Notes: generated by a model not told the origin, from the letters alone. A stretch of DNA of 64,000 nt from an uncultured Planctomycetia bacterium (GCA_964352425.1 CAYGRZ010000003.1:21077-85076); one strand, 5' to 3'; counted from the first letter of the stretch, positions 33,624-48,547 are shown. Translations and numbers: made by a program.

Positions 33624-34649
33624 CTACACTCCTCTGTACCCCATGTCCCCTTCAGCGAATGTCAGATGCCAATCCGTATCCGACGCGCTTCGGAAAGCAT
33701 TATTCGTATCGGCAAGGAAGAAAGGCCTCCCCTTTCTATTTGTGGAAACATACCCCACACTTCCAAGGGCAGCCACATGATCCGGATGTGAGGCCAAAGT
33801 TGAAATAACAGCACACCCTTTTTTCCTAAAAAAATCCTCAACTTTATTCAACACGGACGCCCATACATCTGCATTGTCGCCAAGATATGAAATATGCACG
33901 ATCCTGCCGGTAAAAACATTGTTTTTCCGATCGATATAACATATAACAATACCGATCGGATCGTCACGACATTTTATCGTGAACGCATGCGCTTCAATGA
34001 TCGACGGGCAATCCAGCAGCCAATTAACGCAACCCCTATTTTCTGTGTTATGAACGATCGATCCATGCCTGCGGCCCTGCACACCAATCTCCCTGTCGTA
34101 GGCATCAAGCTTGATGTCCCCGGCACAGATTGCGGGACGCCTGTTTTTCAAAGCTCCTGCCGCCAGGAATATGGTTTTGAGCATCTTTTTTGAAAAAGAA
34201 TCGCTCATCGTCCGCATGTACCTTCGTGGATCCAGAAGCTTACAATATTCTTTGATGTGAAACCTAAAATTAAGGTTAAAACGCGGGTAGAGCGTACGCG
34301 TCCGGGGCTCACCGCCGATAATAAAGCTAAAATCACCGTAACCAAGCGCTTTTTTCATGAGCTGCACCCCGACCCCCTTACCTCGGTAATCGGGATCGAC
34401 TATCCAGAAAATCGGATGCACCCCCATAAATGTCGAACGACCATAGCCATACTCAGATGCTGCAAAACCGACATGGCCGATTATCTTGTCTTCGGCTATT
34501 GCCACGAATGATCTGCTTGTGCGATCACGCAAAGGATACAAAAGAGCCCATCGCAATTCATCGCCGCTTATCTTGCCTGAATAGAGCATCCTGACAGGCT
34601 CTATGTCATTTTCGGTCGTATCTCGCAGGATAACCGCGCTCACCGGCAT
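33624..34649 (-). CDS. GNAT-like acetyltransferase domain protein (hypothetical)
   Basis: 341 aa with a GNAT-like acetyl-CoA site R/Q-x-x-G-x-G/A (YRGKGVGVQLMKKAL). Family assignment is uncertain. Confidence 0.35.
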   Translation of the reverse strand: MPVSAVILRDTTENDIEPVRMLYSGKISGDELRWALLYPLRDRTSRSFVAIAEDKIIGHVGFAASEYGYGRSTFMGVHPIFWIVDPDYRGKGVGVQLMKKALGYGDFSFIIGGEPRTRTLYPRFNLNFRFHIKEYCKLLDPRRYMRTMSDSFSKKMLKTIFLAAGALKNRRPAICAGDIKLDAYDREIGVQGRRHGSIVHNTENRGCVNWLLDCPSIIEAHAFTIKCRDDPIGIVICYIDRKNNVFTGRIVHISYLGDNADVWASVLNKVEDFFRKKGCAVISTLASHPDHVAALGSVGYVSTNRKGRPFFLADTNNAFRSASDTDWHLTFAEGDMGYRGV

Positions 34650-35665
34650 AGCGCCATCTGATTATTGAAAAAAGGCGCGGCTCCGGATAAGGTCACGCCC
34701 TTTACGCCGTACTCTTTCGCTGTCTTGAGCACATAGAGTATTTTCTCTTTAATATTTTTTAAACGCTCCTCGCTATCGGAATAGGGCGAGCCACCCAGCA
34801 ACAGCTCGTTTGAATGGAGCATGAAATTGATTAAAGGAATATCCGATTGAAAAAGGTCGCGAGTAATTTTTTGAAAAACTTTTAACGGTAAATTCCAGTA
34901 CGAAGGCCTGAAGGACATGTCCTCTGTCTTATCATATCCTAACCTGTTACACACATACCGCAACCTGCCTATACCTTTAATTCTCAAGCGGCTCAGAAAA
35001 TCTCCCTTGATCCCCGTCACAGGTATCTCAAGGATATTCATAGCATTCTTTGTCTTTGACGCATCTTTTGTGATGTCATCGGAATCAGGAAAATAGGGAT
35101 AGTTCGGGGCAAAATACGTATCTGTTGTAACATGCCCCCGGACTCCTTTTGTGCCAGTATACGAATTATACGGACAGACAGAGCTATCGACCAGATAGCC
35201 GTTTTTTTCAAGCCATACCAGTGTTCTTTTATCTATACTCCATCTTCCTGCCCTATGCGAGGTAGGTCTGACCCCAAAAATATGTTCGATAGCCTCGTGA
35301 AGCGACTGCATTTTTGCTTCGAATACATTATCCCGCAATTCAGACTGGATCCCGTCGATCCACTGCTCGTCCACACCATAAGGATTGCGATTTTCAAAGG
35401 GAGGGGTGCTCCAAATATGCAAATGGTGCCCAATTTCACATGCGCCGTGCTTCAAAAAATCCCTCAGAATTGTTGCCGAGCAATCGTTGATCGCGACTTC
35501 GTAGGTGACGAGATAGGTCGGGGGCATATCATATTTCGAGCAGGCCTCCTGAAGAAAATGAAGCTCGCCGATAGAAGTGACTTTGTTAAACCGGCTGTCA
35601 AACCAATCCGATTCGGTATCAACAGTTATAACAAAAAGTTTCTCCGCCATGGCATAACGCTCCAA
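34640..35665 (-). CDS. Hypothetical protein, possibly polysaccharide-deacetylase-like (WalW-like)
   Basis: 341 aa. The N-terminal FVITVDTESDW resembles divergent CE4 / WalW-like proteins found in LPS loci. Weak. Confidence 0.3.
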   Translation of the reverse strand: MERYAMAEKLFVITVDTESDWFDSRFNKVTSIGELHFLQEACSKYDMPPTYLVTYEVAINDCSATILRDFLKHGACEIGHHLHIWSTPPFENRNPYGVDEQWIDGIQSELRDNVFEAKMQSLHEAIEHIFGVRPTSHRAGRWSIDKRTLVWLEKNGYLVDSSVCPYNSYTGTKGVRGHVTTDTYFAPNYPYFPDSDDITKDASKTKNAMNILEIPVTGIKGDFLSRLRIKGIGRLRYVCNRLGYDKTEDMSFRPSYWNLPLKVFQKITRDLFQSDIPLINFMLHSNELLLGGSPYSDSEERLKNIKEKILYVLKTAKEYGVKGVTLSGAAPFFNNQMALCR

Positions 35666-37943: not shown

Positions 37944-38876
37944 TTATTTGTTCCTGAACCACTCGACCGTGCGCGCGAGCCCTTCCTCAAATCCTATTAT
38001 TTTTTTCATCCGCAGCATGCGCTTCATCCTGCTGATATCGGCATACGTCTTGCGCACGTCACCCCGCCTTTTCGGCGCATATTTCGGCTTGATATCCGTC
38101 CCGAGTATTTTGTTAAGCTCATTGACGATGTCAATGACCGATACGGTCGTGCCGCAGGCGACATTGAATACCTCGCCCGATATCCCGGGCACGACACATG
38201 AATTCAGGTTCGCCGCAACGACATTTCCCACGAACGTGAAGTCCCTGGACTGCTTGCCGTCCCATTCGACGATCGGAGACTTGCCCTTCATTATCTCGAA
38301 GAGGAATGCCGGTATGACCGCGGAGTACTTCGACTCCGGATTCTGCCGGGGGCCGAAGACGTTGAAGTAGCGCAGCGAGACCGTCTCGAGACCGAATGTC
38401 CTGGCGAATGTAATGCAGTAATTCTCGGCGGCCAGTTTCGAAACACCGTACGGTGAGATCGGCTTCGGCAGGTCGGTCTCTTTCTGGGGAAAGCTCCTGG
38501 CGTCACCATAGGCAGAACTTGACGAGGCATACACGACCCGTTTTACACCCGCCGCCTTGGCTTCGAATAGGACATTTAACGTACCGTTCACATTAATATC
38601 ATTGGTCGTGAATGGATCATCGACAGATTTCGGGACTGAGCGGAGCGCCGCCTGGTGGATGACGTAGTCGACGCCTCTCAGGGCCTTCCTAAGCGTACTC
38701 CTGTTCCTTATATCCCCCTTAATGAACGTGATCTTTCCCGAAAAAGGCTTCAGGTTCTCCATCTTTCCGGTGATAAGGCTGTCGATAACCCTGACTCTCT
38801 TCTTCCGCCTTACGAGCTCCTCGACGATATTCGAACCTATGAATCCGGCTCCGCCGGTAACGAGATAGTGTGCCAT
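37944..38876 (-). CDS. NAD-dependent sugar epimerase (UDP-GlcNAc/UDP-glucose 4-epimerase-like, WbpP/CapD-like)
   Basis: 310 aa. [21 protein letters not shown] and YGVSKLAAE (YxxxK). Confidence 0.75.
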   Translation of the reverse strand: MAHYLVTGGAGFIGSNIVEELVRRKKRVRVIDSLITGKMENLKPFSGKITFIKGDIRNRSTLRKALRGVDYVIHQAALRSVPKSVDDPFTTNDINVNGTLNVLFEAKAAGVKRVVYASSSSAYGDARSFPQKETDLPKPISPYGVSKLAAENYCITFARTFGLETVSLRYFNVFGPRQNPESKYSAVIPAFLFEIMKGKSPIVEWDGKQSRDFTFVGNVVAANLNSCVVPGISGEVFNVACGTTVSVIDIVNELNKILGTDIKPKYAPKRRGDVRKTYADISRMKRMLRMKKIIGFEEGLARTVEWFRNK

Positions 38877-38878
38877 AG

Positions 38879-41647
38879 TTATAGTTTTATGATGCTCTTC
38901 CTTTCCTTCTGGTTCTTCAGGACGTTCCGCGTATCGACGATCAGTTTCGAATGCTCGACGATAAAATCGTAGTCGACGTCCGTGTGATCGGTCACGATGA
39001 CGACGCAGTCCGCGCCCCTGAACGTTTCTTTATCGAATTTGGCAAGGTCAAGATTGATCTCGCCTATCTTAAGATACGGGAAGAGCGCGTCGTAGTACGA
39101 GACATCGGCGCCCTTATGCATGAGGAACTCTATGATCTCAAGCGCGGGAGACTCGCGCAGGTCCTTCACGTCCTTCTTGTACGCCACGCCGACGACGAGG
39201 ACCTTCGATCCGTTCAGCGCCTTCTTATGGTTGTTCAGGCCTTCGGTCACTTTGGAGACGACATAGTGCGGCATCTCGGAGTTGACCTGGGCGGCGAGGT
39301 CGATGAACCGCGCCTCGAACCCGTACATCCTCGCCTTCCACGAAAGATAGATGGGATCGACGGGTATACAGTTATGCGTCAATACACCGTACGACGTCAC
39401 GAAGGTATTTGTGTCACGCACTTCCATCGAATAAACATTATCCGCGTTCGAACGGGATATGCTCTTTATTTTAACGGCGGCAAAATCTTTATATAGTTTG
39501 AATGACTTGTTTGAAACCACTCGTTTTTTATTCTTAAAGTAAGTCCCTATCTTTTTTGATTTCTCTCCGAGGAATACAGTTTTGAGCATTTTCAACTGCT
39601 CACTGCCGAATATATTGAGCAGATTCTTCCTTTTCTTAAGGGTCGGAACAAACCCGAGGTCCTGCAATAGCAGCAGCACTTGATTAAAGAGAATGTCGCT
39701 TGAGGTGAAATAATTTACCACTGCGGCATTGTTATTGTGGCAATACTTTTTGCCCCTCTTAAAATAAGTCCTTTGCAGGTTTGAGTAATCTACGCCTCCG
39801 TCGCCGCGCAAGATGCCCATGAGGAGATTCAGCTTCAATTCTTTCGGAAAAAGCAGAAACCTGTCCGGTATTTTCATCGCGTAGGAATTGATACCGCATT
39901 TTAAGATATCCCTTAAAAGATATCCAAAAATAGAAGATGATATCTTAATACATGCGCTTTTCCATATCTTTGATTTATATACCGAGTAAGTTATGCCTCT
40001 TTCTTTTAAGAATAAAATGACATCCGTGATATATTCCGTCTCGTTCGAATTAAACGTCAGCCTGGTTCTTATCGAACCATCCAGAGTTATACATCCTTCA
40101 CTTAAATAGTAGCCGATGAATCTGCTGAAATCTTCGTCTATCTCAATAACGGCCGGAACGCTCTGGAATGATGGGCCTCTACCTGTAACTAATAAGAGAT
40201 CTTCCCTATCAACTGCCCAGGACGTCTTCTTCTCTAGCGACAGGTAAACGCTTAATGGTAGAGAGTTGTCCCTTATGTAATCGCGCACCTTATCTTTTTC
40301 AGAAGGCTCAGTATTTTTGTATATAACATCTCTATAGGACGACCATTCAAAGTCTTTGCCTTTCAAGCGGACGCCTTTCACGAGATCGTTATCTCTTAAA
40401 AAATCTATCATATCTATCCGCAAGTCGCTCGATTTTGTCAACGATTTTGGCATGGTAAGAATTACGGGTATCTCATCGTTAATTTCAAGCTCTTCGGCGA
40501 ATTTAACCCCCATAGCGCCGTCTTTCGCGACCATCACCGGATGCTTTGGAGTAACGCAAAATTCACGCCTGTCCGCCAGCATGATATTCAACATATCGCC
40601 TTTATAAGGCCTTTCGGAAAGTATGCCTATCTCCTTAAAACAAGGCTCTGCCTTTACCACATCGTAAGAAAATATTTCTTTCGCATTAGGCCTTATAAAT
40701 GTTGTGCCTCTGAGATCGTGCATTCGGGATTGGGGGTCATCCTTAGACTCCTTAACAAAATCCGATATTTTAATAACTCGTAACTCGCTACCATCCTTCT
40801 CTTTCACGAATATTTGCTCGTCTTTACCAAGGCAGTGCCCACCTACCCCGGGCCCCGGATAGAACGGCATGAAGCCGTAGGGCTTCGTCTTGGCCGCGTC
40901 GATCACTTCCCACACGTCGATCTTGAGCCTGTCGCACATGAGCATGAGCTCGTTCACCATGCCGATATTGACGATCCTGAACGTGTTCTCGAGGAGCTTC
41001 ACCATCTCGGCGACTTTTGCCGACGAGACGGGGACTATCTTCTCAAGCGCCTGCTCGTAGAGGAGCTTCGCCAGGTCCGTAGAGTTCTTCGAAATGCCGC
41101 CGATGATCTTCGGCGTGTTCTTCGTATCATACTTCGGATTACCGGGATCGATGCGCTCGGGTGAGAAGGCAAGATAAAAATCCTTCCCTTCCTTCCAGAG
41201 GTCCTCTTCAAGGATCGGGAGCATAACCTCCTCGGTCGTTCCGGGATACGTCGTGGATTCAAGAACGATTATCTGGCCACGCTTCATGTGCCTCTTTATG
41301 TTCCTGACCGCAGAGACGATGAACGAGACATCCGGCTCTTTCGTCTTATAGAGCGGTGTCGGCACGCAGATGATCACCGCGTCGAGGTCTTTTATTACGC
41401 TGAAATCGGTCGTGACCGCGAGCGACTTGTTCTTCCTGACCAGGATGAGATCCGACTGCTGCACGTCGAGGATGTATGACTCGCCCTTCTGGATCTTTGC
41501 CACCCGGTCCTTGTCGATGTCTATTCCGTGTACCTTAAACCCGCACTTCGCGAATGTCACGGCAAGCGGTAGCCCCACATAGCCGAGGCCGATGATGCCG
41601 ATCTTCGCCTTCTTGCTTGAAATCTTCTTCTTCAGTTCATTTAACAT
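38879..41647 (-). CDS. UDP-N-acetyl-D-hexosamine (ManNAc/GlcNAc) 6-dehydrogenase, WecC/WbpA/Cap5O family, with an intein inserted at the catalytic Cys
   Basis: 922 aa. The N-extein (1-271) has the NAD-binding KIGIIGLGYVGLPLAV motif and ends ...GPGVGGH. The C-extein (760-922) starts CIPVDPIYLSW. Joined, these give the family signature GVGGHCIPVDP. Combined extein length is 434 aa. Confidence 0.8.
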   Translation of the reverse strand: MLNELKKKISSKKAKIGIIGLGYVGLPLAVTFAKCGFKVHGIDIDKDRVAKIQKGESYILDVQQSDLILVRKNKSLAVTTDFSVIKDLDAVIICVPTPLYKTKEPDVSFIVSAVRNIKRHMKRGQIIVLESTTYPGTTEEVMLPILEEDLWKEGKDFYLAFSPERIDPGNPKYDTKNTPKIIGGISKNSTDLAKLLYEQALEKIVPVSSAKVAEMVKLLENTFRIVNIGMVNELMLMCDRLKIDVWEVIDAAKTKPYGFMPFYPGPGVGGHCLGKDEQIFVKEKDGSELRVIKISDFVKESKDDPQSRMHDLRGTTFIRPNAKEIFSYDVVKAEPCFKEIGILSERPYKGDMLNIMLADRREFCVTPKHPVMVAKDGAMGVKFAEELEINDEIPVILTMPKSLTKSSDLRIDMIDFLRDNDLVKGVRLKGKDFEWSSYRDVIYKNTEPSEKDKVRDYIRDNSLPLSVYLSLEKKTSWAVDREDLLLVTGRGPSFQSVPAVIEIDEDFSRFIGYYLSEGCITLDGSIRTRLTFNSNETEYITDVILFLKERGITYSVYKSKIWKSACIKISSSIFGYLLRDILKCGINSYAMKIPDRFLLFPKELKLNLLMGILRGDGGVDYSNLQRTYFKRGKKYCHNNNAAVVNYFTSSDILFNQVLLLLQDLGFVPTLKKRKNLLNIFGSEQLKMLKTVFLGEKSKKIGTYFKNKKRVVSNKSFKLYKDFAAVKIKSISRSNADNVYSMEVRDTNTFVTSYGVLTHNCIPVDPIYLSWKARMYGFEARFIDLAAQVNSEMPHYVVSKVTEGLNNHKKALNGSKVLVVGVAYKKDVKDLRESPALEIIEFLMHKGADVSYYDALFPYLKIGEINLDLAKFDKETFRGADCVVIVTDHTDVDYDFIVEHSKLIVDTRNVLKNQKERKSIIKL
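39371..40834 (-). mobile_element. Intein (488 aa) with LAGLIDADG homing-endonuclease domain
   Basis: It begins with Cys (CLGKDEQIFVKEKDGSELRVI, block A) and has block B TPKHPV. It carries two LAGLIDADG-like motifs (FIGYYLSEGC and LLMGILRGDGG). It ends ...YGVLTHN (blocks F/G) and is followed by the +1 Cys of the extein. Confidence 0.7.
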
Positions 41648-41677: not shown

Positions 41678-41760
41678 TAGAAGCCAACTACGGCTTCCTC
41701 GCAATGACGGTTATTTTAAATAGAAGCCGGTAACAGCTTCCCCGCAATGACGGTTATTTC
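41678..41760 (-). repeat. Tandem duplication of a 40-nt element (hairpin plus conserved 20-mer) overlapping the rmlD stop
   Basis: Copy 1 (41678..41717) is tagaagccaactacggcttcctcgcaatgacggttatttt. Copy 2 (41721..41760) is tagaagccggtaacagcttccccgcaatgacggttatttc. Each has a gaagc/gcttc stem with a variable loop. Confidence 0.6.
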
Positions 41761-42701
41761 GACAAATATTCCTTGAGCGCCGCCTTCCAGCCGCGCATCC
41801 GGTATCCGGTAAATTTCCTGAACTTCGCGTTATCCATGACCGACATCGCCGGCCGCTTCGCGGGCCTCTTCAACTCCGACGACGTGATCGGCGCGACCTT
41901 CGCCTTCGACTTCACTATCTTCAGGATCTGCCTGGCATACTCGAACCACGATACTTTCCCGGAGTTTGATACATGATAAATCCCATAGCCCTTAGCCCTA
42001 AGCTCTTGGCCCTCAGCCCTTAGCCCTTCGCCCTTCGCCCTCAGCCCTTCGCCCTTAGCTATCTTATTGAGCAACGCATGGATCGCCTTCGCCAGATCCT
42101 TCGTATACGTCGGCGAACCGACCTGGTCGTCGACGACCTTCAGCGCCTTCCCGGCCTTCGCCCTGGCCGTGATCGTATCTACAAAATTCTTGCCGCGCTT
42201 GCCGTAGAGCCAGCTTGTGCGCAGGATATAATATTTTTCGAGCGTCTCCTGGACGGCCCTCTCGCCCTTCAGCTTCGAATCGCCATATATGCCCAGCGGC
42301 GCGACCGCGTCGGTCTCTCGATATGGCTTCTTCTTCCTGCCATCGAATACAAAATCGGTGCTGATGTAAATGAGCGCTGCATGGGCATTCTTACATGCAA
42401 GAGCAACGCTCCTCGTCCCCTCGCTATTTACCGCATAAGCCTTGTCAGGATCGAGCTCGCACCCGTCGACATCGGTCCACGCGGCCGCATGCACGACAAG
42501 ATCCGGCCTCGCCTCTTCGATCATATCCGCAACTGCCTTGCCGTCAGTGATATTGCCTTTATAAAACTTGTGTACACTTGACAGCGGGCTGCGGATCACA
42601 TCCAGCCCTGCGAGATCATAGTCAGCGGCGAGTTCACGAGAAAGATCTATCCCGAGCATCCCGCTCGAGCCCGTTATCAATACTTTATATCTTGTCGGCA
42701 T
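41754..42701 (-). CDS. rmlD: dTDP-4-dehydrorhamnose reductase (RmlD) with an internal 3x7-aa repeat insertion
   Basis: YKVLITGSSGMLG, ...HAAAWTDVDGCE and YGDSKLKGE match RmlD. I placed the start at ATG 42699..42701 (MPTRYKVL). The track ORF starts at GTG 42743. The sequence KGEGLRAKGEGLRAEGQELRA is inserted near the C-terminus. Confidence 0.75.
   Translation of the reverse strand: MPTRYKVLITGSSGMLGIDLSRELAADYDLAGLDVIRSPLSSVHKFYKGNITDGKAVADMIEEARPDLVVHAAAWTDVDGCELDPDKAYAVNSEGTRSVALACKNAHAALIYISTDFVFDGRKKKPYRETDAVAPLGIYGDSKLKGERAVQETLEKYYILRTSWLYGKRGKNFVDTITARAKAGKALKVVDDQVGSPTYTKDLAKAIHALLNKIAKGEGLRAKGEGLRAEGQELRAKGYGIYHVSNSGKVSWFEYARQILKIVKSKAKVAPITSSELKRPAKRPAMSVMDNAKFRKFTGYRMRGWKAALKEYLSK
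41986..42060 (-). repeat. In-frame tandem 21-nt repeat (gcccttRgccctYagcYctt-like units) inside rmlD
   Basis: The DNA tagcccttagccctaagctcttggccctcagcccttagcccttcgcccttcgccctcagcccttcgcccttagc encodes KGEGLRA three times on the minus strand. Confidence 0.6.
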
Positions 42702-43657
42702 ACAAGCAACCGGTCCCACCACGCCTTGTTGGACTGATACCACTCAACAGTGAGTTCGAGCGCCGTCCTAAATTCATGCCGCGGCTTCCAGCCCAGAGCG
42801 GAAAGCTTCGATATGTCGAGGGCGTAACGCTTGTCGTGGCCGGGCCTGTCTTTGACATATTCGATGGAGCTTTCGTCCTTGCCGAGGATCTTCAGGAGCG
42901 TATGCGTGAGCTCCATATTCGTGATCTCGCTTCCCGCCCCGATATTGTATATCTCGCCTGCCTTGCCTTTATGCATCACTACGTCGATGGCCTCGCAGTT
43001 ATCGGCCACAAAGAGCCAGTCGCGCACGTTCATTCCGTCGGCATAGAGCGGCACCTTCTTGCCGACCATCAGGTTCGTTATAAAGAGAGGTATAACCTTT
43101 TCCGGGTACTGGTAGGGCCCGAAATTGTTTGAACTGCGGGTTATGATGACCGGTAATTTGAAGGTGACAAAATAGGATCTGGCCAGAAGATCCGCGCCCG
43201 CCTTAGTGGCAGAATATGGGCTGTTGGGTTCAAGCGGATCGCCCTCTTTTGAATAGCCCCGAGCGATGCTGCCGTAGCACTCATCCGTTGAGATTTGTAT
43301 GACCAGCTCGATGCCGGACTTCTTAGCCGCCTCTAAAAGCGTGTAGGTCCCAAAGACGTTCGTCCTGACGAATTCGGACGCGTCCTGTATGGACCTGTCC
43401 ACATGCGATTCGGCCGCGAAGTTGATGATTGAGTCGCAGCCCTTGACAAGCTTCTCGACCGTCTGCTTGTCGGTGATGTCGCCTTTGACGAACCGGTACT
43501 GCCTGTTCTTCTCGACGTCACGCAGGTTCTCCAGATTGCCGCAATAGGTGAGCTTGTCGAGGTTCGTGACGTGATAGTCGGGATATTTTCCGAGGATGTG
43601 CCGGATGAAATTTGACCCTATGAAACCGGCGCCGCCGGTGACGAGAAGTGTCTTCAT
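42677..43657 (-). CDS. rmlB: dTDP-glucose 4,6-dehydratase (RmlB)
   Basis: 326 aa. [22 protein letters not shown], ...ISTDECYG and YSATKAGADLLARSY are all canonical for RmlB. Confidence 0.85.
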   Translation of the reverse strand: MKTLLVTGGAGFIGSNFIRHILGKYPDYHVTNLDKLTYCGNLENLRDVEKNRQYRFVKGDITDKQTVEKLVKGCDSIINFAAESHVDRSIQDASEFVRTNVFGTYTLLEAAKKSGIELVIQISTDECYGSIARGYSKEGDPLEPNSPYSATKAGADLLARSYFVTFKLPVIITRSSNNFGPYQYPEKVIPLFITNLMVGKKVPLYADGMNVRDWLFVADNCEAIDVVMHKGKAGEIYNIGAGSEITNMELTHTLLKILGKDESSIEYVKDRPGHDKRYALDISKLSALGWKPRHEFRTALELTVEWYQSNKAWWDRLLVCRQDIKY

Positions 43658-44941: not shown

Positions 44942-46237
44942 TTACCTGCGCCCCATCCCCTCGTAGGTAAATCCGAGCGCCTTAACTTCGTCAGGGTCGT
45001 AAATATTCCTGCCGTCGACTATCACCGGCTGCCGCATCAGCTTCTTGACTTTCTTAAGATCCAGCTCCTTGAACTCGCTCCACTCGGTGGCGATGACGAG
45101 GCAATCGCAGCCCCGGGCCGTATCATACACATCCTTGCAGAATTTCACACCGCTCTTCAGTATAACCTTTGCCTTGTTCATCGCGACGGGATCATACACC
45201 TTCACCCTGACGCCCTGCTCCCGGAGCACTTCGATCACATCGAGGGCGGGCGCATAACGAAGATCGTCGGTGTTCGGCTTGAACGCCAGCCCGAGCACGC
45301 CAACGGTCTTGCCGGACAGGTTCCATATCGCATTCTCGACCTTCTTTATCAGCGCGAGCTTCTGGCCGTCGTTTATCTTCTGCACTTCCTTCAGGAGGGC
45401 GAAGTCGTAGCCTGCCTTCTCGGCTATCCTGATGAACGCCGCAAGATCCTTCGGGAAGCAGAACCCGCCGAAACCGAGGCCGGCGTTCAGGAACTTGTCG
45501 CCGATCCTCTTGTCGAGCCCGATGCCCTTCGCGACCTCGACGACGTCGGCACTCAGCTTATCGCAGACGTTCGCGATCGCATTGATGAATGATACCTTCA
45601 TGGCGAGGAACGAATTGGCGGCGTGCTTGATGAGCTCGGCAGATTTTATATCGGTCACCACGATCTCGGCCTTGAGCGGCCTGTATATCTCGGAGAGGAT
45701 CTCGGCGGCCTTCCTGGACTTAACGCCCAGGACGATCCTGTCCGGGTTCATAAAATCCTCTATGGCGGAACCTTCTCTTAAGAATTCCGGGTTGGACGCG
45801 ACGTCGAACTTCACGCCGCGCTTACTGAACGTCTTGATCGTATGCTCGACCCATTCGCCGGTATTGACGGGTACGGTCGATTTTTCCACGACCACCTTGT
45901 ATGACTGCATGGATCCGGCGATCTCTTTGCAGACGCCCTCGACGAAGCTCAAGTCAGCCTCGCCGTTGTCCTTCGGAGGCGTCCCGACCGCTATGAATAT
46001 GACGTCGGACTTTACAACACCGTCCTTCACGTGCAGAGCGAAAGAGAGCCTGCCCTTCTTGACGTTCCGTTTCACGAGCTCAGCAAGGCCCGGCTCGTAA
46101 ATGGGCATGACGCCGCCTTTAAGCTTCCTGATCTTTGACAGATCGTTATCGACACAGATGACCTTGTTGCCGAGCTCGGCAAAACAGGCCCCGGTCACCA
46201 GCCCTACGTATCCCGCACCGACCATGCATATATTCAT
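44942..46237 (-). CDS. ugd: UDP-glucose 6-dehydrogenase
   Basis: 431 aa. MNICMVGAGYVGLVTGACFAELGNKVICVDND and the catalytic-Cys motif GLGFGGFCFPKD. Confidence 0.85.
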   Translation of the reverse strand: MNICMVGAGYVGLVTGACFAELGNKVICVDNDLSKIRKLKGGVMPIYEPGLAELVKRNVKKGRLSFALHVKDGVVKSDVIFIAVGTPPKDNGEADLSFVEGVCKEIAGSMQSYKVVVEKSTVPVNTGEWVEHTIKTFSKRGVKFDVASNPEFLREGSAIEDFMNPDRIVLGVKSRKAAEILSEIYRPLKAEIVVTDIKSAELIKHAANSFLAMKVSFINAIANVCDKLSADVVEVAKGIGLDKRIGDKFLNAGLGFGGFCFPKDLAAFIRIAEKAGYDFALLKEVQKINDGQKLALIKKVENAIWNLSGKTVGVLGLAFKPNTDDLRYAPALDVIEVLREQGVRVKVYDPVAMNKAKVILKSGVKFCKDVYDTARGCDCLVIATEWSEFKELDLKKVKKLMRQPVIVDGRNIYDPDEVKALGFTYEGMGRR

Positions 46238-46351: not shown

Positions 46352-48547
46352 CTAATTGCCCGTTCCGGCGTCGCCGAAGCGCGGCGTCGAGTAGGTCTGC
46401 TTGAGGCCGACAGGATAGTCGGGGAAGGCCTTCAGCTTCATGACAAAGAAAAGGCCCTGGGTCATGAGATTGTTGCCGATGCTGTAGGTGAGCTCCGCGA
46501 CCCAGCAATGCAGGTCCCTGGAGACAGTGAACTGCAGCTCCTCCTGCTTCTTGGAATTGAGGTCGAACCGCTCGTAGGCGCGGAGAGACCATTTCTCGTT
46601 GATCTTGTACCTGATGTCCATCGTGACGAGCGTGCTCTGCAGGGATTCCGTATCCGCGTACCTGAGGCCCGTCGACACCGACCATTTTTCTCCACCGTTG
46701 GCGACAAGGTCGATGCCCACCTCGTCCATCAGGTATTTCTTGGTATTGACATGGGCGGTCGATACCATGTACATCCACGAATAAGGGATCAGTTCCAGCC
46801 TGAAATCGATGCCGTCGAATTTGTTGGACTTCGTGTCCCAGTTATTCTTATCCAGCCTGAACTTGTAGTCGGTGCTGACTAAGAGCGTCGCGAGGTCGAC
46901 CGACTGCATGTTGTCGGCCGTCCCGCGCTTGGTCTGCAGCCTGTTCTCGAGAGCAAGCCTCACGCCATTGTCGGTATCGAACGCGTCGATCTCGTCGAAC
47001 TGGTTCAGGTTTTCCGGGGCTATCGTCGGCTGATGGCGGTGGTAGTAATTCGCCGTCGGCGTGATGATATGCCTGACTTTGTTTATGTCGAGCCCCATAA
47101 AATTCGTCTGGACGTCATACACCTTGTAGAATTTTATCGACGTATCGACGCCTTCCTGGAAGATCGTCCTCACCAGGTTGGTATCGCCCCATATGTTCCT
47201 GGAATAGTACGTCTCGCGTATGCCGGCGTACGGCGTGACGCTCAGCGCATTGAAGAACCGCGCGGCGTACGAGATCTGGTTATACGCGTCGAACCGTATC
47301 GTGCTGACGTCCTTCTGCGACAGGGCGGACGGGTACGTGTGGTTGAGGAAGACGCCGCTCGCGTTTGCGGTATAGTAAAAGTTCGTGTCCTTGATTTTGT
47401 AGTTCAGGATATCGATCTTGTATTCCGGCAGCCTTTCGACATAGTCAAGGAAGTTGTCGAAACGCTTCCTGACGAGAAGCTGGGTCGTGTAATCGCGCTT
47501 TGACGTGATGACGGAGATATAATTATCGGGCGTATCGCCGATCTCCTCGTATTCGTTGTAGAAATAATCCTTGATCACATCGACATCGCTCAGCTTGTTG
47601 AACTCGACTACGGCCGCCGTATCGAGGTTCGGCATATCCCACCGGTGCCTGTACTGGTAGCGGTAGCGTGTCGTCTCGGCGCCGGACTTGTCGTAGGCGA
47701 GGTTGCTGTTTTCGTCGATGTAATAGACCTTGAACGCGCCCTTGCCAACGTCCTTGCTGTCCAGATAATGGTGTATGCCCGCCGCCAGGCCCTTCTTCGA
47801 CCTGTAGTCCAGCAGTATGTCGCCTTTGGAATTTTCATTGATATAGTACCGGTAGGCGGTAAGGGCGTAACAGCCCCAGTCTTTGCTCTGGCCGGGGATC
47901 ACGGTAATGTGGGTCTTGCGCTCTTTGCCGAGCGCCTGCACGTAGTAGGGCAGCCATGCAACCGGTACTGTGCCGATGTACACCAGGACGTTCTTCGCGA
48001 CGATCTTGTCGTCGAGGTACACATTGACCTGCTGGGCCTGGATGCGGTAGTGCGTGTTGTCGTAATCGCAGGTGGTGACATATCCTTCGCTCATCCCGTA
48101 CTCGTCTTTGTTGGCCGCCTTCCCCAGATCGCTCGCCTTCCCGTAAAAAGGCTTCGCGTTCAGGTAGCCGTTCGAGACCGAGCCTTTGCGCGTCTCGAAA
48201 TTGTAGAGGACCCTGTCGCCGGTGAAATAGGCGTCTTTCTGGGTGATTTTGACGTTGCCGATGGCTTCGGCGTCGCGCGTCTCGAGGTTGACGATTATCT
48301 TGTCGCAGGTGAGGACGATGTCTTTGTAGGTTATCGAAATATTGCCGGTGCCGGTGACCTCTTTCTGCTCCTGGAAATACACGACGCTGTCGCCGTTGAC
48401 GACGATCGCCTCTTTACCGGGGATCACCTGTTCGGCGCCGGCGCCGGAAGCGGCGAGCATCACCATCAGTATCAGGATGATCTTACTTTTGAGGGAGCTG
48501 GCCTGGCTGATCTTGTGTACGTTCGCGGTATCTATGGACAGCTTCAT
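46352..48547 (-). CDS. lptD: LPS-assembly outer membrane protein LptD (OstA family)
   Basis: 731 aa. N-terminal signal or TM region (KIILILMVMLAASGAGA), an OstA-like N-domain, and a large beta-rich C-terminal region ending in aromatic residues. Confidence 0.6.
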   Translation of the reverse strand: MKLSIDTANVHKISQASSLKSKIILILMVMLAASGAGAEQVIPGKEAIVVNGDSVVYFQEQKEVTGTGNISITYKDIVLTCDKIIVNLETRDAEAIGNVKITQKDAYFTGDRVLYNFETRKGSVSNGYLNAKPFYGKASDLGKAANKDEYGMSEGYVTTCDYDNTHYRIQAQQVNVYLDDKIVAKNVLVYIGTVPVAWLPYYVQALGKERKTHITVIPGQSKDWGCYALTAYRYYINENSKGDILLDYRSKKGLAAGIHHYLDSKDVGKGAFKVYYIDENSNLAYDKSGAETTRYRYQYRHRWDMPNLDTAAVVEFNKLSDVDVIKDYFYNEYEEIGDTPDNYISVITSKRDYTTQLLVRKRFDNFLDYVERLPEYKIDILNYKIKDTNFYYTANASGVFLNHTYPSALSQKDVSTIRFDAYNQISYAARFFNALSVTPYAGIRETYYSRNIWGDTNLVRTIFQEGVDTSIKFYKVYDVQTNFMGLDINKVRHIITPTANYYHRHQPTIAPENLNQFDEIDAFDTDNGVRLALENRLQTKRGTADNMQSVDLATLLVSTDYKFRLDKNNWDTKSNKFDGIDFRLELIPYSWMYMVSTAHVNTKKYLMDEVGIDLVANGGEKWSVSTGLRYADTESLQSTLVTMDIRYKINEKWSLRAYERFDLNSKKQEELQFTVSRDLHCWVAELTYSIGNNLMTQGLFFVMKLKAFPDYPVGLKQTYSTPRFGDAGTGN

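What the first reader, a model, noticed from the sequence alone, without database searches (positions are those of the whole stretch)
38879..41647. LAGLIDADG intein inserted exactly at the catalytic cysteine of a WecC/WbpA-type UDP-N-acetylhexosamine dehydrogenase
The ORF is 922 aa, but residues 1-271 and 760-922 join into a normal 434-aa nucleotide-sugar dehydrogenase with the signature GVGGH|CIPVDP restored. The intervening 488 aa start with Cys and carry block B TPKHP and two LAGLIDADG-type motifs. They end in His-Asn followed by the extein Cys, which is the catalytic nucleophile of this enzyme family. Inteins are rare in bacterial metabolic genes, although some archaeal UDP-glucose dehydrogenases carry them. 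Production of the 2-acetamido uronic acid precursor in this glycan locus would depend on protein splicing. The intein DNA looks somewhat more AT-rich than its host gene.
Basis: partly seen in the sequence, partly recalled or inferred. Interest (0 to 1): 0.75.

Follow-up and report, generated by a model that had tools for sequence, protein, structure and literature searches.

The report
Homing intein in a sugar dehydrogenase
A self-splicing, mobile protein insert (an intein with its own DNA-cutting enzyme) sits exactly at the catalytic cysteine of a sugar-nucleotide dehydrogenase in an Omnitrophota bacterium. The reading is correct, but this insertion site was already catalogued and is common in bacterial genomes, so it is a clean, recently acquired example and not a new kind of thing.

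Summary
ORF 38879..41647(-) encodes 922 aa. Residues 272-759 (488 aa; window 39371..40834) are a canonical class-1 intein: Cys1, block B T95-P-K-H98, His487-Asn488, +1 Cys. It carries a two-motif LAGLIDADG endonuclease (E246, D345). Pfam and NCBIfam intein and LAGLIDADG models score above their cut-offs, and an AlphaFold model (pLDDT 89) matches PI-PkoII, PI-PfuI and PI-SceI.

The joined exteins (434 aa) are a full-length nucleotide-sugar dehydrogenase, colinear with Cap5O and P. horikoshii WecC. The +1 Cys falls on the GGHC cysteine. The closest homologues (Candidatus Omnitrophota, up to 90% identity) are intein-free and exactly 434 aa.

It is not new. It belongs to the published 'udp' (InBase 'UDP GD') intein allele: 37% identity end to end to the Dictyoglomus member and 31% to M. 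jannaschii. At least 159 species-representative genomes, most of the named ones bacterial, encode relatives. All 76 loci with both junctions readable have the same GGH|C...HN|C site.

Local added value: acquisition looks recent. The extein-minus-intein GC3 gap is 0.31, larger than in all 76 other loci. The intein is 89% DNA-identical to a relative whose extein is only 71% identical. Endonuclease dN/dS is 0.07. Substrate (WecC/WbpA/TviB) is not resolved.

The parts
38879..41647 (-). Whole precursor gene: nucleotide-sugar dehydrogenase interrupted in frame by an intein (922 aa plus a TAA stop at 38879-38881)
   Evidence: The downstream TviC-like epimerase ATG at 38874-38876 lies 2 nt after the stop, and there is a 106-nt gap to the upstream RmlD-like gene.
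40835..41647 (-). N-extein, aa 1-271: NAD-binding domain and most of the central domain, ending in GPGVGGH
   Evidence: Pfam UDPG_MGDP_dh_N and UDPG_MGDP_dh; 93% aa identity to the intein-free P0029.
39371..40834 (-). Intein, ORF aa 272-759 (488 aa), 40.9% GC
40451..40834 (-). N-terminal splicing (HINT) half, intein aa 1-128, starting with Cys1 (40832-40834). This is the part retained in the mini-intein allele P0022.
   Evidence: TIGR01445 covers intein 1-102 at 34.9 bits. The model is all-beta over residues 7-125. 70.5% aa identity to the P0022 mini-intein over residues 1-129.
40541..40552 (-). Block B T-P-K-H (intein T95, H98)
   Evidence: T95 and H98 are invariant in the 10-sequence alignment A1; coordinates.
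40160..40450 (-). Mainly helical linker or DNA-recognition-like region between the splicing and endonuclease domains (intein aa 129-225). The boundaries are approximate.
   Evidence: Secondary structure of the model. Its function is inferred by analogy with PI-PkoII and PI-SceI.
39515..40159 (-). LAGLIDADG homing-endonuclease domain (intein aa about 226-440; boundaries approximate)
   Evidence: Pfam LAGLIDADG_3 at 34.1 bits against a cut-off of 22.5. Foldseek hits to PI-PkoII, PI-PfuI, I-DmoI and I-Tsp061I. dN/dS 0.066 against L086 over aa 320-440.
40091..40123 (-). LAGLIDADG motif 1, RFIGYYLSEGC (acidic residue E246)
   Evidence: G241-Y-Y-L-S245, G247 and C248 are invariant and E246 is conserved in at least 90% of A1. 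The motif lies on helix 234-246 of the model.
39797..39829 (-). LAGLIDADG motif 2, NLLMGILRGDG (acidic residue D345)
   Evidence: G344-D345-G346 are invariant in A1. The motif lies on helix 331-345 of the model.
39371..39514 (-). C-terminal splicing half (intein aa 441-488) with block F VYSMEVRDTNTFV and block G ...VLTHN (His487-Asn488 at 39371-39376)
   Evidence: TIGR01443 scores 16.2-19.4 bits against a cut-off of 15.6. V467, S469, E471, G483, H487 and N488 are invariant.
39368..39370 (-). +1 Cys (ORF Cys760; Cys272 of the spliced enzyme). It is the splicing nucleophile for transesterification and aligns with the GGxC catalytic thiol of the dehydrogenase family.
   Evidence: It aligns with the Cys of GVGGHC in 4r16, 3ojl (Cap5O) and 3g79. 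Its catalytic role rests on established knowledge of the family, for example human UGDH Cys276 (PMC3265891 abstract).
38882..39370 (-). C-extein, aa 760-922 (163 aa): end of the central domain plus the UDP-binding domain
   Evidence: Pfam UDPG_MGDP_dh_C; 84% aa identity to the intein-free P0029.

Best explanation
The gene encodes a precursor in which a 488-aa bifunctional intein interrupts a 434-aa UDP-sugar 6-dehydrogenase. The intein combines a HINT splicing domain with a two-motif LAGLIDADG homing endonuclease. The host enzyme is probably specific for a UDP-N-acetylhexosamine. The break lies between His271 and the active-site Cys of the GGHC motif.

After translation the intein should excise itself by the canonical four steps:
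1. An N-S acyl shift at Cys1.
2. Transesterification onto the +1 Cys.
3. Asn488 cyclisation, assisted by His487.
4. An S-N shift that restores the peptide bond.

This would release a normal dehydrogenase whose +1 Cys then serves as the catalytic thiol, plus a free endonuclease of about 55 kDa. The endonuclease is expected to cut the uninterrupted GGHC-coding site of intein-free alleles and so copy the intein into them (homing).

Shown here:
- The anatomy and the conserved residues.
- The predicted fold.
- The exact colinearity of the exteins.
- The existence of empty, full and mini-intein alleles in close relatives that share the gene order.
- Membership of the published 'udp' intein allele.
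- Sequence signatures of recent horizontal arrival and of purifying selection on the endonuclease.

Inferred, not shown:
- That splicing and DNA cleavage actually occur.
- That the precursor is enzymatically inactive.
- The sugar substrate.
For: Anatomy and conserved residues: C1, T95/H98, H487/N488 and the +1 Cys are invariant across 10 diverse homologues. E246 (motif 1) is at least 90% conserved and D345 (motif 2) is invariant.

Curated HMMs above cut-off: Intein_splicing, LAGLIDADG_3, TIGR01445 and TIGR01443.

Structure: pLDDT 89.4 and pTM 0.88. Foldseek finds PI-PkoII (E 8.7e-27, TM 0.62), the TliVMA intein, PI-PfuI and PI-SceI, followed by mini-inteins and free LAGLIDADG meganucleases. 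The sequence also hits PI-PkoII directly.

Exteins: TIGR03026 at 455.6 bits over the full model. They are colinear with 4r16, 3ojl and 3g79, with GGHC aligned. Of the 120 best extein homologues, 119 are intein-free (433-453 aa, most exactly 434 aa). The best is 90% identical, and all named ones are Candidatus Omnitrophota.

Allele states in relatives with the same gene order: empty in L001/L002, a 222-aa mini-intein in L003/L004, and a full-length but broken copy in L005.

Same site everywhere: 76 of 76 readable genome loci have GGH|C...HN|C, as do all complete metagenome hits.

Known allele: 36.7% identity over residues 1-488 to the Dictyoglomus thermophilum 'udp' intein (E 3e-101), 35% to T. 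gammatolerans, 31% to M. jannaschii and 29% to Halorubrum.

Recent mobility and selection:
- The intein part is 89% DNA-identical to L086 (third positions 77%, dS 0.49), while the adjoining C-extein is 71% identical (third positions 46%, dS 2.6).
- dN/dS of the endonuclease part is 0.066.
- The extein-minus-intein GC3 gap of 0.31 exceeds all 76 comparison loci (maximum 0.25, median 0.08).
Against: No experiment shows splicing or DNA cleavage for this protein.

The comparison with L086 covers only the last 169 intein residues and the C-extein, because that contig is 1.3 kb. The discordance is therefore measured on part of the element.

Inteins in this family are generally somewhat more AT-rich than their hosts (70 of 76 loci). 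Part of the GC gap is therefore a family trait and not a sign of recency.

Extein identity is naturally highest next to the junction, so no co-conversion tract can be claimed.

The substrate-specific equivalogs all fail their cut-offs.
Confidence: 0.9

Rival explanations
1. The intein still splices but its endonuclease no longer cuts DNA. On this view the element is a vertically inherited passenger on its way to becoming a mini-intein, the late phase of the homing cycle.
For: Close relatives show exactly this decay. P0022 (L003/L004) has lost the whole endonuclease, leaving a 222-aa mini-intein. The L005 copy is split into two ORFs. Sequence alone cannot prove cleavage activity.
Against: Both catalytic acidic residues are retained: E246 is at least 90% conserved and D345 is invariant across the family. 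dN/dS of the endonuclease part is 0.066. The intein is much more similar to L086 than the host gene is (89% against 71% DNA identity; dS 0.49 against 2.6), which requires recent mobility. The GC3 gap is the largest of 77 loci.
Confidence: 0.15
2. The insert is a splicing-dead remnant or a permanently inserted domain. The locus would then produce a non-functional or differently functioning 103-kDa protein, and the sugar acid would come from another enzyme.
For: A second dehydrogenase of the same superfamily lies 3.3 kb away at 44942..46237. Splicing has not been tested experimentally.
Against: Every residue needed for canonical class-1 splicing is intact and invariant in the family. The 488 codons are stop-free at P about 1e-15. 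The exteins are under purifying selection (dN/dS 0.11 against L001). The paralog is TuaD-like (UDP-glucose type, GFGGFCFPKD; 591 bits on the TuaD model) and is not a duplicate of this enzyme. No homologue carries the segment without the C...HN|C junctions.
Confidence: 0.04
3. Assembly artefact: a low-GC fragment from another organism was joined into the gene during metagenome assembly.
For: There is an abrupt GC drop from about 54% to 41% exactly over the insert.
Against: The insert is in frame to the nucleotide and sits at the canonical splice junctions. Independent assemblies from other samples carry homologous inteins at the identical codon. A chimera would not reproduce that.
Confidence: 0.01

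Closest known systems
'udp' intein allele of UDP-glucose/UDP-ManNAc dehydrogenases (InBase 'UDP GD'; Soucy et al. 2014, PMC4071816). Published members include M. jannaschii NP_248048.1, Thermococcus gammatolerans, Halorubrum spp., Dictyoglomus thermophilum H-6-12 and a Fervidibacteria (EM19) single-cell genome.
   Same: Same host enzyme family and the same Cys1...His-Asn ends. The motifs are shared (GYYLSEG, LRGDG, VYSxEV..T..F). The window's intein aligns end to end with published members: 36.7% identity to Dictyoglomus (E 3e-101), 35% to T. gammatolerans, 31% to M. jannaschii and 29% to Halorubrum. The same GGx|C insertion point is seen in every homologue read here, archaeal ones included.
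   Different: The host is a Candidatus Omnitrophota bacterium, a phylum not in the 2014 list. No member in the collections searched is more than 45% identical over the full length. Only short metagenome fragments are close, at 92% and 79%. The host paralogue is the GGHCIPVDP (acetamido-sugar-like) type, not the GGSCFPKD UDP-glucose type of the halobacterial hosts.
PI-PkoII (Thermococcus kodakarensis DNA polymerase intein-2; PDB 2cw7), and PI-PfuI and PI-SceI
   Same: Bifunctional architecture: a HINT splicing domain split by a two-motif LAGLIDADG endonuclease plus an extra DNA-binding region. PI-PkoII is the best fold match (E 8.7e-27, TM 0.62) and the only full-size intein hit by sequence (E 1e-6).
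   Different: About 15% sequence identity. These sit in different host proteins (DNA polymerase, RNR, V-ATPase) and so have different DNA targets.
Cap5O (S. aureus, PDB 3ojl) and P. horikoshii UDP-ManNAc dehydrogenase (PDB 4r16); TviB and WbpA/WbpO-type UDP-GlcNAc 6-dehydrogenases
   Same: The joined exteins align over the full length (E 8e-71 and 3e-67) with the GVGGHC active-site motif conserved. The gene is followed directly by a TviC-like epimerase. WbpB-, WbpE- and WbpD-like genes (GFO/IDH/MocA oxidoreductase, DegT-type aminotransferase, LbH acetyltransferase) lie downstream.
   Different: All substrate-specific equivalog models fail their cut-offs: archaeal WecC 298.6 against 750, WecC 270.9 against 459, TviB 233 against 592. 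The characterised enzymes have no intein.

Membership tests
Canonical (class 1) intein / HINT domain | Cys or Ser at intein position 1 | tested here: met
   Cys272 of the ORF is intein C1, invariant in A1.
Canonical (class 1) intein / HINT domain | Block B T-x-x-H | tested here: met
   T95-P-K-H98; T95 and H98 are invariant.
Canonical (class 1) intein / HINT domain | C-terminal His-Asn followed by a Cys, Ser or Thr at +1 | tested here: met
   H487-N488|C. It is invariant in A1 and present at every C-junction read among the 80 genome loci, including all 76 loci where both junctions were readable.
Canonical (class 1) intein / HINT domain | Curated profile matches and a HINT fold | tested here: met
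   PF14890 43.1 against 35.8; TIGR01445 34.9 against 24.5; TIGR01443 16.2-19.4 against 15.6. The model has pLDDT 89 and matches solved inteins.
Canonical (class 1) intein / HINT domain | In-frame insertion in a conserved host protein whose intein-free homologues are colinear across the junction | tested here: met
   The joined exteins are 434 aa. P0029 is 434 aa and 90% identical, with an ungapped DNA alignment of 1305 nt at 86% identity.
Canonical (class 1) intein / HINT domain | Autocatalytic protein splicing demonstrated | not testable with these tools
   Needs expression followed by SDS-PAGE or mass spectrometry.
LAGLIDADG homing endonuclease (single-chain, two-motif) | Two LAGLIDADG helices, each ending in a catalytic Asp or Glu | tested here: met
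   GYYLSE246G and LRGD345G. D345 is invariant and E246 is at least 90% conserved. Both lie at the C-terminal ends of helices 234-246 and 331-345.
LAGLIDADG homing endonuclease (single-chain, two-motif) | Profile and fold match | tested here: met
   PF14528 34.1 against 22.5, in two stretches. Foldseek hits to I-Tsp061I, I-DmoI, E-DreI and I-OnuI-family enzymes.
LAGLIDADG homing endonuclease (single-chain, two-motif) | Site-specific cleavage of the intein-less allele | not testable with these tools
   There is indirect support only: dN/dS 0.066, and intein-versus-extein identity discordance with L086.
'udp' / UDP GD intein allele | Detectable homology to published members of the allele | tested here: met
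   BLASTP against sequences from the paper's supplement: Dictyoglomus 36.7% over 1-488 (E 3e-101), T. gammatolerans 35.4% (E 3e-80), M. jannaschii 30.7% (E 4e-42), Halorubrum 29.2% (E 1e-55).
'udp' / UDP GD intein allele | Same insertion point in the host (immediately before the Cys of the GGxC motif) | tested here: met
   Met for all 76 genome loci with both junctions readable and for the 10 metagenome proteins with both junctions present, including archaeal hosts and GGxCFPKD-type hosts. For the published members, only the intein ends (C...HN) and a gap placed next to SCFPKD in the extein alignment were seen. This is consistent with the same site, but the junction residues of M. jannaschii itself were not read.
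Nucleotide-sugar dehydrogenase (TIGR03026 subfamily) | Full-length profile match above the curated cut-off, with all three domains | tested here: met
   455.6 bits against a cut-off of 189.8, model positions 2-413 of 413. Pfam N-terminal, central and C-terminal domains are all present.
Nucleotide-sugar dehydrogenase (TIGR03026 subfamily) | Catalytic Cys in the GGxC motif | tested here: met
   The +1 Cys aligns with the GGHC Cys of 4r16, 3ojl and 3g79. Its catalytic role comes from the literature on the family (abstract; own knowledge for Cap5O Cys258).
WecC (UDP-ManNAc dehydrogenase) equivalogs NF008286 / NF040825 | Score at or above the equivalog cut-off | tested here: not met
   270.9 against 459, and 298.6 against 750.
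TviB (UDP-GlcNAc 6-dehydrogenase) equivalog NF011729 | Score at or above the equivalog cut-off | tested here: not met
   233 against 592. The downstream epimerase is likewise TviC-like but below its cut-off, at 232.6 against 760.
WbpA-type UDP-GlcNAc 6-dehydrogenase | Substrate specificity for UDP-GlcNAc, with WbpB/E/D partners | tested here: inconclusive
   No WbpA model matched in the NCBIfam scan. JGI names close homologues 'UDP-N-acetyl-D-glucosamine dehydrogenase'. WbpB-, WbpE- and WbpD-like genes are in the operon, but all score below their equivalog cut-offs.

The most novel reading that the evidence does not exclude
One cysteine is both the splicing nucleophile (+1) and the enzyme's catalytic thiol, and the intein begins with another cysteine. 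Splicing could therefore be conditional, for example blocked by a Cys1 to Cys+1 disulfide or by thiol oxidation. The intein would then act as a redox-sensitive post-translational switch on surface-glycan precursor synthesis in Omnitrophota, and not as a purely selfish element. That could help explain why this allele persists across so many phyla.
Probability: 0.07. Interest if true: 0.6.

Novelty: new member of a known kind. Interest (0 to 1): 0.25.

Why it matters
Annotation: the gene should be named as an intein-containing nucleotide-sugar dehydrogenase, not as a 922-aa fusion or a hypothetical protein. Its mature product is a normal 434-aa enzyme.

Biology: it adds a well-documented case to the rule that inteins lodge at the most conserved, catalytically essential codons. 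It also shows that the 'udp' allele, described mainly from archaea, is widespread in uncultured bacteria (Omnitrophota, Planctomycetota, Chloroflexota, Desulfobacterota, Cyanobacteria, Aquificota and others).

The small set of Omnitrophota relatives with the same gene order carries empty, full-length and endonuclease-less alleles, and the window's copy bears a clear signature of recent transfer. Together they form a compact natural example of the homing cycle.

The endonuclease is also a candidate new meganuclease specificity, with the GGHC-coding sequence as its target. None of this changes current understanding of inteins.

Tried and rejected
1. An exact-product look-up of the 922-aa protein found nothing on record. 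The window's source contig could therefore not be identified, and the taxon was inferred from extein homologues instead.

2. Rfam found no RNA genes in the window to help with taxonomy.

3. Literature searches for 'intein' with 'UDP GD', 'MJ1054', 'UDPGD' or 'nucleotide sugar dehydrogenase' returned nothing. The Cap5O structure paper (PMC3089555) is not held. The statement that Cap5O Cys258 is catalytic therefore rests on my own knowledge plus the motif alignment.

4. I looked for a co-conversion tract in the extein next to the junction (identity in 60-nt bins). I rejected it as evidence, because that stretch is also the most conserved part of the enzyme.

5. I tested whether the free-standing LAGLIDADG-like ORF in the intein-free relative (L001 1335-1976) is related to the intein or present in the window. 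It is neither.

6. I tested whether the odd palindromic segment that replaces the endonuclease in the mini-intein allele recurs in the window or in other loci. It does not.

7. I considered reading the low GC purely as evidence of recent transfer. I tempered this because 70 of 76 family members also have inteins that are more AT-rich than their hosts.

8. I did not run the 1.84-billion-protein representative search or the metagenome-contig scan, because their results would not have changed the verdict.
Full report

Yes. One search lists a single uninterrupted ORF at 38879..41647 on the minus strand, 922 aa. locates GVGGH271|C272LGKDE at the upstream junction and VLTH758-N759|C760IPVDP at the downstream one.

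- The insert is 488 aa (window 39371..40834).
- The flanks are 271 + 163 = 434 aa, and joining them recreates GVGGHCIPVDP.
- The composition shift is stronger than 'somewhat'. The intein is 40.9% GC against 54.4% and 53.5% for the exteins, and GC3 is 47.7% against 78.4%.
- At the intein's base composition, 488 stop-free codons have a probability of about 1e-15, so the frame is maintained by selection.

**2. What is the insert?**

Curated profiles score above their cut-offs on the insert or the whole ORF:

| Model | Score (bits) | Cut-off (bits) |
|---|---|---|
| Pfam Intein_splicing | 43.1 | 35.8 |
| Pfam LAGLIDADG_3 | 34.1 | 22.5 |
| NCBIfam intein_Nterm | 34.9 | 24.5 |
| NCBIfam intein_Cterm | 16.2-19.4 | 15.6 |

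The insert also matches the intein portions of intein-containing archaeal proteins: Tes, DNA polymerase II large subunit and RNA polymerase A''.

An alignment with nine diverse full-length homologues (A1) shows these positions invariant: C1, T95, H98, G241-Y-Y-L-S245, G247, C248, G344-D345-G346, V467, S469, E471, G483, H487 and N488. E246 is conserved in at least 90% of sequences. These are all the residues needed for class-1 splicing plus the two acidic residues of a two-motif LAGLIDADG active site.

An AlphaFold model built on that alignment is confident (pLDDT 89.4, pTM 0.88). Its domains are:

- beta-rich splicing halves at residues 7-125 and 445-487;
- a helical linker region;
- two alpha-beta-beta-alpha-beta-beta-alpha units whose first helices carry the motifs.

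Foldseek against the PDB returns the intein endonucleases PI-PkoII (E 8.7e-27, TM 0.62), TliVMA, PI-PfuI and PI-SceI. Mini-inteins and free LAGLIDADG meganucleases follow. PI-PkoII is also the best sequence-level PDB hit.

**3. What is the host protein, and is the +1 Cys the catalytic one?**

The joined exteins match TIGR03026 (nucleotide-sugar dehydrogenase) at 455.6 bits over model positions 2-413 of 413. All three Pfam domains become uninterrupted.

They align colinearly with P. horikoshii UDP-ManNAc dehydrogenase 4r16 (E 8e-71), S. aureus Cap5O 3ojl (E 3e-67) and 3g79. The +1 Cys falls on the Cys of their GVGGHC motif.

That this Cys is the covalent nucleophile of the family is established knowledge. 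Covalent catalysis by Cys276 is established for human UGDH (PMC3265891 abstract). Cap5O Cys258 and S. pyogenes Cys260 are from my own knowledge.

Substrate is not resolved. The archaeal WecC equivalog scores 298.6 against a cut-off of 750, WecC 270.9 against 459, and TviB 233 against 592.

Context favours an acetamido sugar (all scores below equivalog cut-offs):

- the gene is followed after 2 nt by a TviC-like epimerase;
- further downstream lie a GFO/IDH/MocA oxidoreductase resembling UDP-GlcNAc 3-dehydrogenase, a DegT-type aminotransferase, an LbH acetyltransferase, a Wzx-like flippase and a GT4 glycosyltransferase;
- upstream lie RmlA/B/C/D-like genes and a second, intein-free TuaD-like UDP-glucose dehydrogenase (44942..46237, motif GFGGFCFPKD).

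**4. Whose genome, and what do relatives look like?**

The 120 best homologues of the joined exteins are 72-90% identical, and every named one is Candidatus Omnitrophota. Of these, 119 lack the insert and are 433-453 aa, most exactly 434 aa.

Contigs of the nearest ones share the window's gene order and show three allele states:

- **Empty site.** L001/L002 (P0029) are 90% aa and 86% DNA identical to the joined exteins, in an ungapped 1305-nt alignment.
- **Mini-intein.** L003/L004 (P0022) carry a 222-aa mini-intein. It keeps intein residues 1-129 and the last 40 or so. The endonuclease is replaced by a 177-nt segment containing a palindrome.
- **Broken full-length copy.** L005 (P0009) has a full-length but interrupted copy, on a contig where several other genes are also split. 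Assembly error cannot be excluded.

Empty, full and endonuclease-less alleles together are the stages expected from the homing cycle.

**5. Is it mobile and recently arrived?**

Three lines of evidence point that way.

- **GC3 gap.** The extein-minus-intein GC3 gap is 0.31. In 76 other genomes with the same intein it ranges from -0.17 to 0.25, with a median of 0.08.
- **Identity discordance.** Metagenome fragment L086 (P0007) is 92% aa and 89% DNA identical to the window over the last 169 intein residues (third positions 77%, dS 0.49). The adjoining C-extein is only 75% aa and 71% DNA identical (third positions 46%, dS 2.6). The closest extein allele overall is an empty one.
- **Purifying selection.** The endonuclease part compared with L086 has dN/dS 0.066.

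Caveats: the L086 comparison covers only part of the element. Inteins of this family are usually somewhat more AT-rich than their hosts (70 of 76 loci). No co-conversion tract can be claimed.

**6. Comparison with what is known.**

UDP-glucose dehydrogenase inteins have been in InBase since the M. jannaschii genome (review PMC2874743).

Soucy et al. 2014 (PMC4071816) define a single 'udp' allele in seven halobacteria, six other Euryarchaeota and two bacteria: Dictyoglomus thermophilum and a Fervidibacteria single-cell genome. Their supplementary alignment allowed a direct test. The window's intein aligns as follows:

| Published member | Identity | E-value | Window residues aligned |
|---|---|---|---|
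| Dictyoglomus thermophilum | 36.7% | 3e-101 | 1-488 |
| T. gammatolerans | 35.4% | 3e-80 | 1-488 |
| M. jannaschii | 30.7% | 4e-42 | 75-488 |
| Halorubrum saccharovorum | 29.2% | 1e-55 | 1-488 |

A scan of one genome per GTDB species used the single pattern GYYLSEGC and found 159 species that encode a relative. The 80 loci fetched are mostly bacterial:

- Bacteria: Omnitrophota, Planctomycetota, Chloroflexota, Desulfobacterota (including the complete Desulfonema magnum genome), Cyanobacteria, Aquificota, Acidobacteriota, Gemmatimonadota, Eisenbacteria and Patescibacteria.
- Archaea: Woesearchaeota, Nanoarchaeia, Methanosarcinales and Bathyarchaeia.

In all 76 loci where both junctions are readable, the intein sits at GGH|C...HN|C. 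More distant hosts of the GGxCFPKD type carry it at the same Cys (P0025, P0027, P0028).

The element is therefore a new member of a known, widespread intein allele. The best full-length identity to anything in the genome collection is 45%.

**7. Mechanism (inferred from the family).**

The precursor cannot be an active dehydrogenase. Its GGH and C-I-P-V-D halves are separated by 488 residues, and the catalytic thiol is the residue that must accept the N-extein during transesterification. Splicing proceeds through four steps:

1. an acyl shift at Cys1;
2. transfer of the N-extein to Cys+1;
3. Asn488 cyclisation, aided by His487;
4. an S-to-N shift that restores the peptide bond.

The products are the 434-aa enzyme and the free endonuclease. 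The endonuclease is expected to recognise the uninterrupted sequence around ...GGCGGGCAC|TGCATTCCG... in empty alleles, and repair then copies the intein in. Synthesis of the uronic-acid precursor from this gene therefore depends on splicing. This is a reasonable inference but has not been shown.

**8. Verdict.**

The claim of rarity in bacteria is not, and the WecC/WbpA label is unproven. Novelty: a new member of a known kind. Interest is modest at 0.25. It is a tidy, recently transferred example with a natural series of allele states, and it suggests a possible new meganuclease specificity, but it does not change what is known about inteins.

The most novel reading not excluded is redox-conditional splicing through the Cys1/Cys+1 pair, acting as a switch on glycan synthesis. 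I give that about 7%.

Noticed in passing
window 41982-42059 (inside the RmlD-like gene 41754..42743, minus strand): A 7-nt tandem repeat (CCCTTAG on the + strand, about 11 copies, 78% matches) lies in frame inside the dTDP-4-dehydrorhamnose reductase gene. It encodes an extra GEGLRAKGEGLRAEGQELRAKG stretch. The homologue in the intein-free relative L001 is 310 aa against 329 aa here, so that relative probably lacks the insertion.
   Followed up: partly
L003 9219-9395 and L004 3650-3826 (mini-intein allele P0022): In the closest full-length intein-bearing relative, the whole endonuclease domain is replaced, in frame, by a 177-nt segment. It contains a palindrome (CGTCATTGCGAGG...CCTCGCAATGACG) and translates as ...ATPRHCEEREARRGNLKKRDCFGPSGLAMTA.... 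It looks like a small palindromic repeat element. No copy was found in the window or in any other fetched locus.
   Followed up: partly
L001 1335-1976: The relative with the empty (intein-free) allele has a 213-aa free-standing ORF with a faint LAGLIDADG_3 hit between its RmlC and RmlA genes. It has no detectable similarity to the intein and no counterpart in the window.
   Followed up: partly
window 44942..46237 (minus strand): This is a second, intein-free dehydrogenase of the same superfamily (431 aa, TuaD-like, 591 bits against a cut-off of 700) with active-site motif GFGGFCFPKD. Related inteins occupy this same kind of site in other lineages (P0025, P0027, P0028), but here it is uninvaded.
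   Followed up: partly
window 46352..48547 (minus strand): A 731-aa ORF with no Pfam match is conserved in the same position, next to the UDP-glucose dehydrogenase and downstream of a GGDEF protein, in L003 (731 aa) and L005 (722 aa).
   Followed up: no
window 33624..35665 (minus strand): Two adjacent ORFs of identical length (341 aa each) sit in the glycan operon. One has only an N-terminal GNAT domain and the other has no Pfam or NCBIfam match.
   Followed up: no
L005 3325-4620, 5949-6908 and 8001-10769: On this relative's contig, several genes of the shared operon are split into two ORFs each: the UDP-glucose dehydrogenase, an epimerase and the intein-bearing dehydrogenase. This is either a decaying locus or an error-prone assembly, so the 'broken intein' there should not be over-interpreted.
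   Followed up: no
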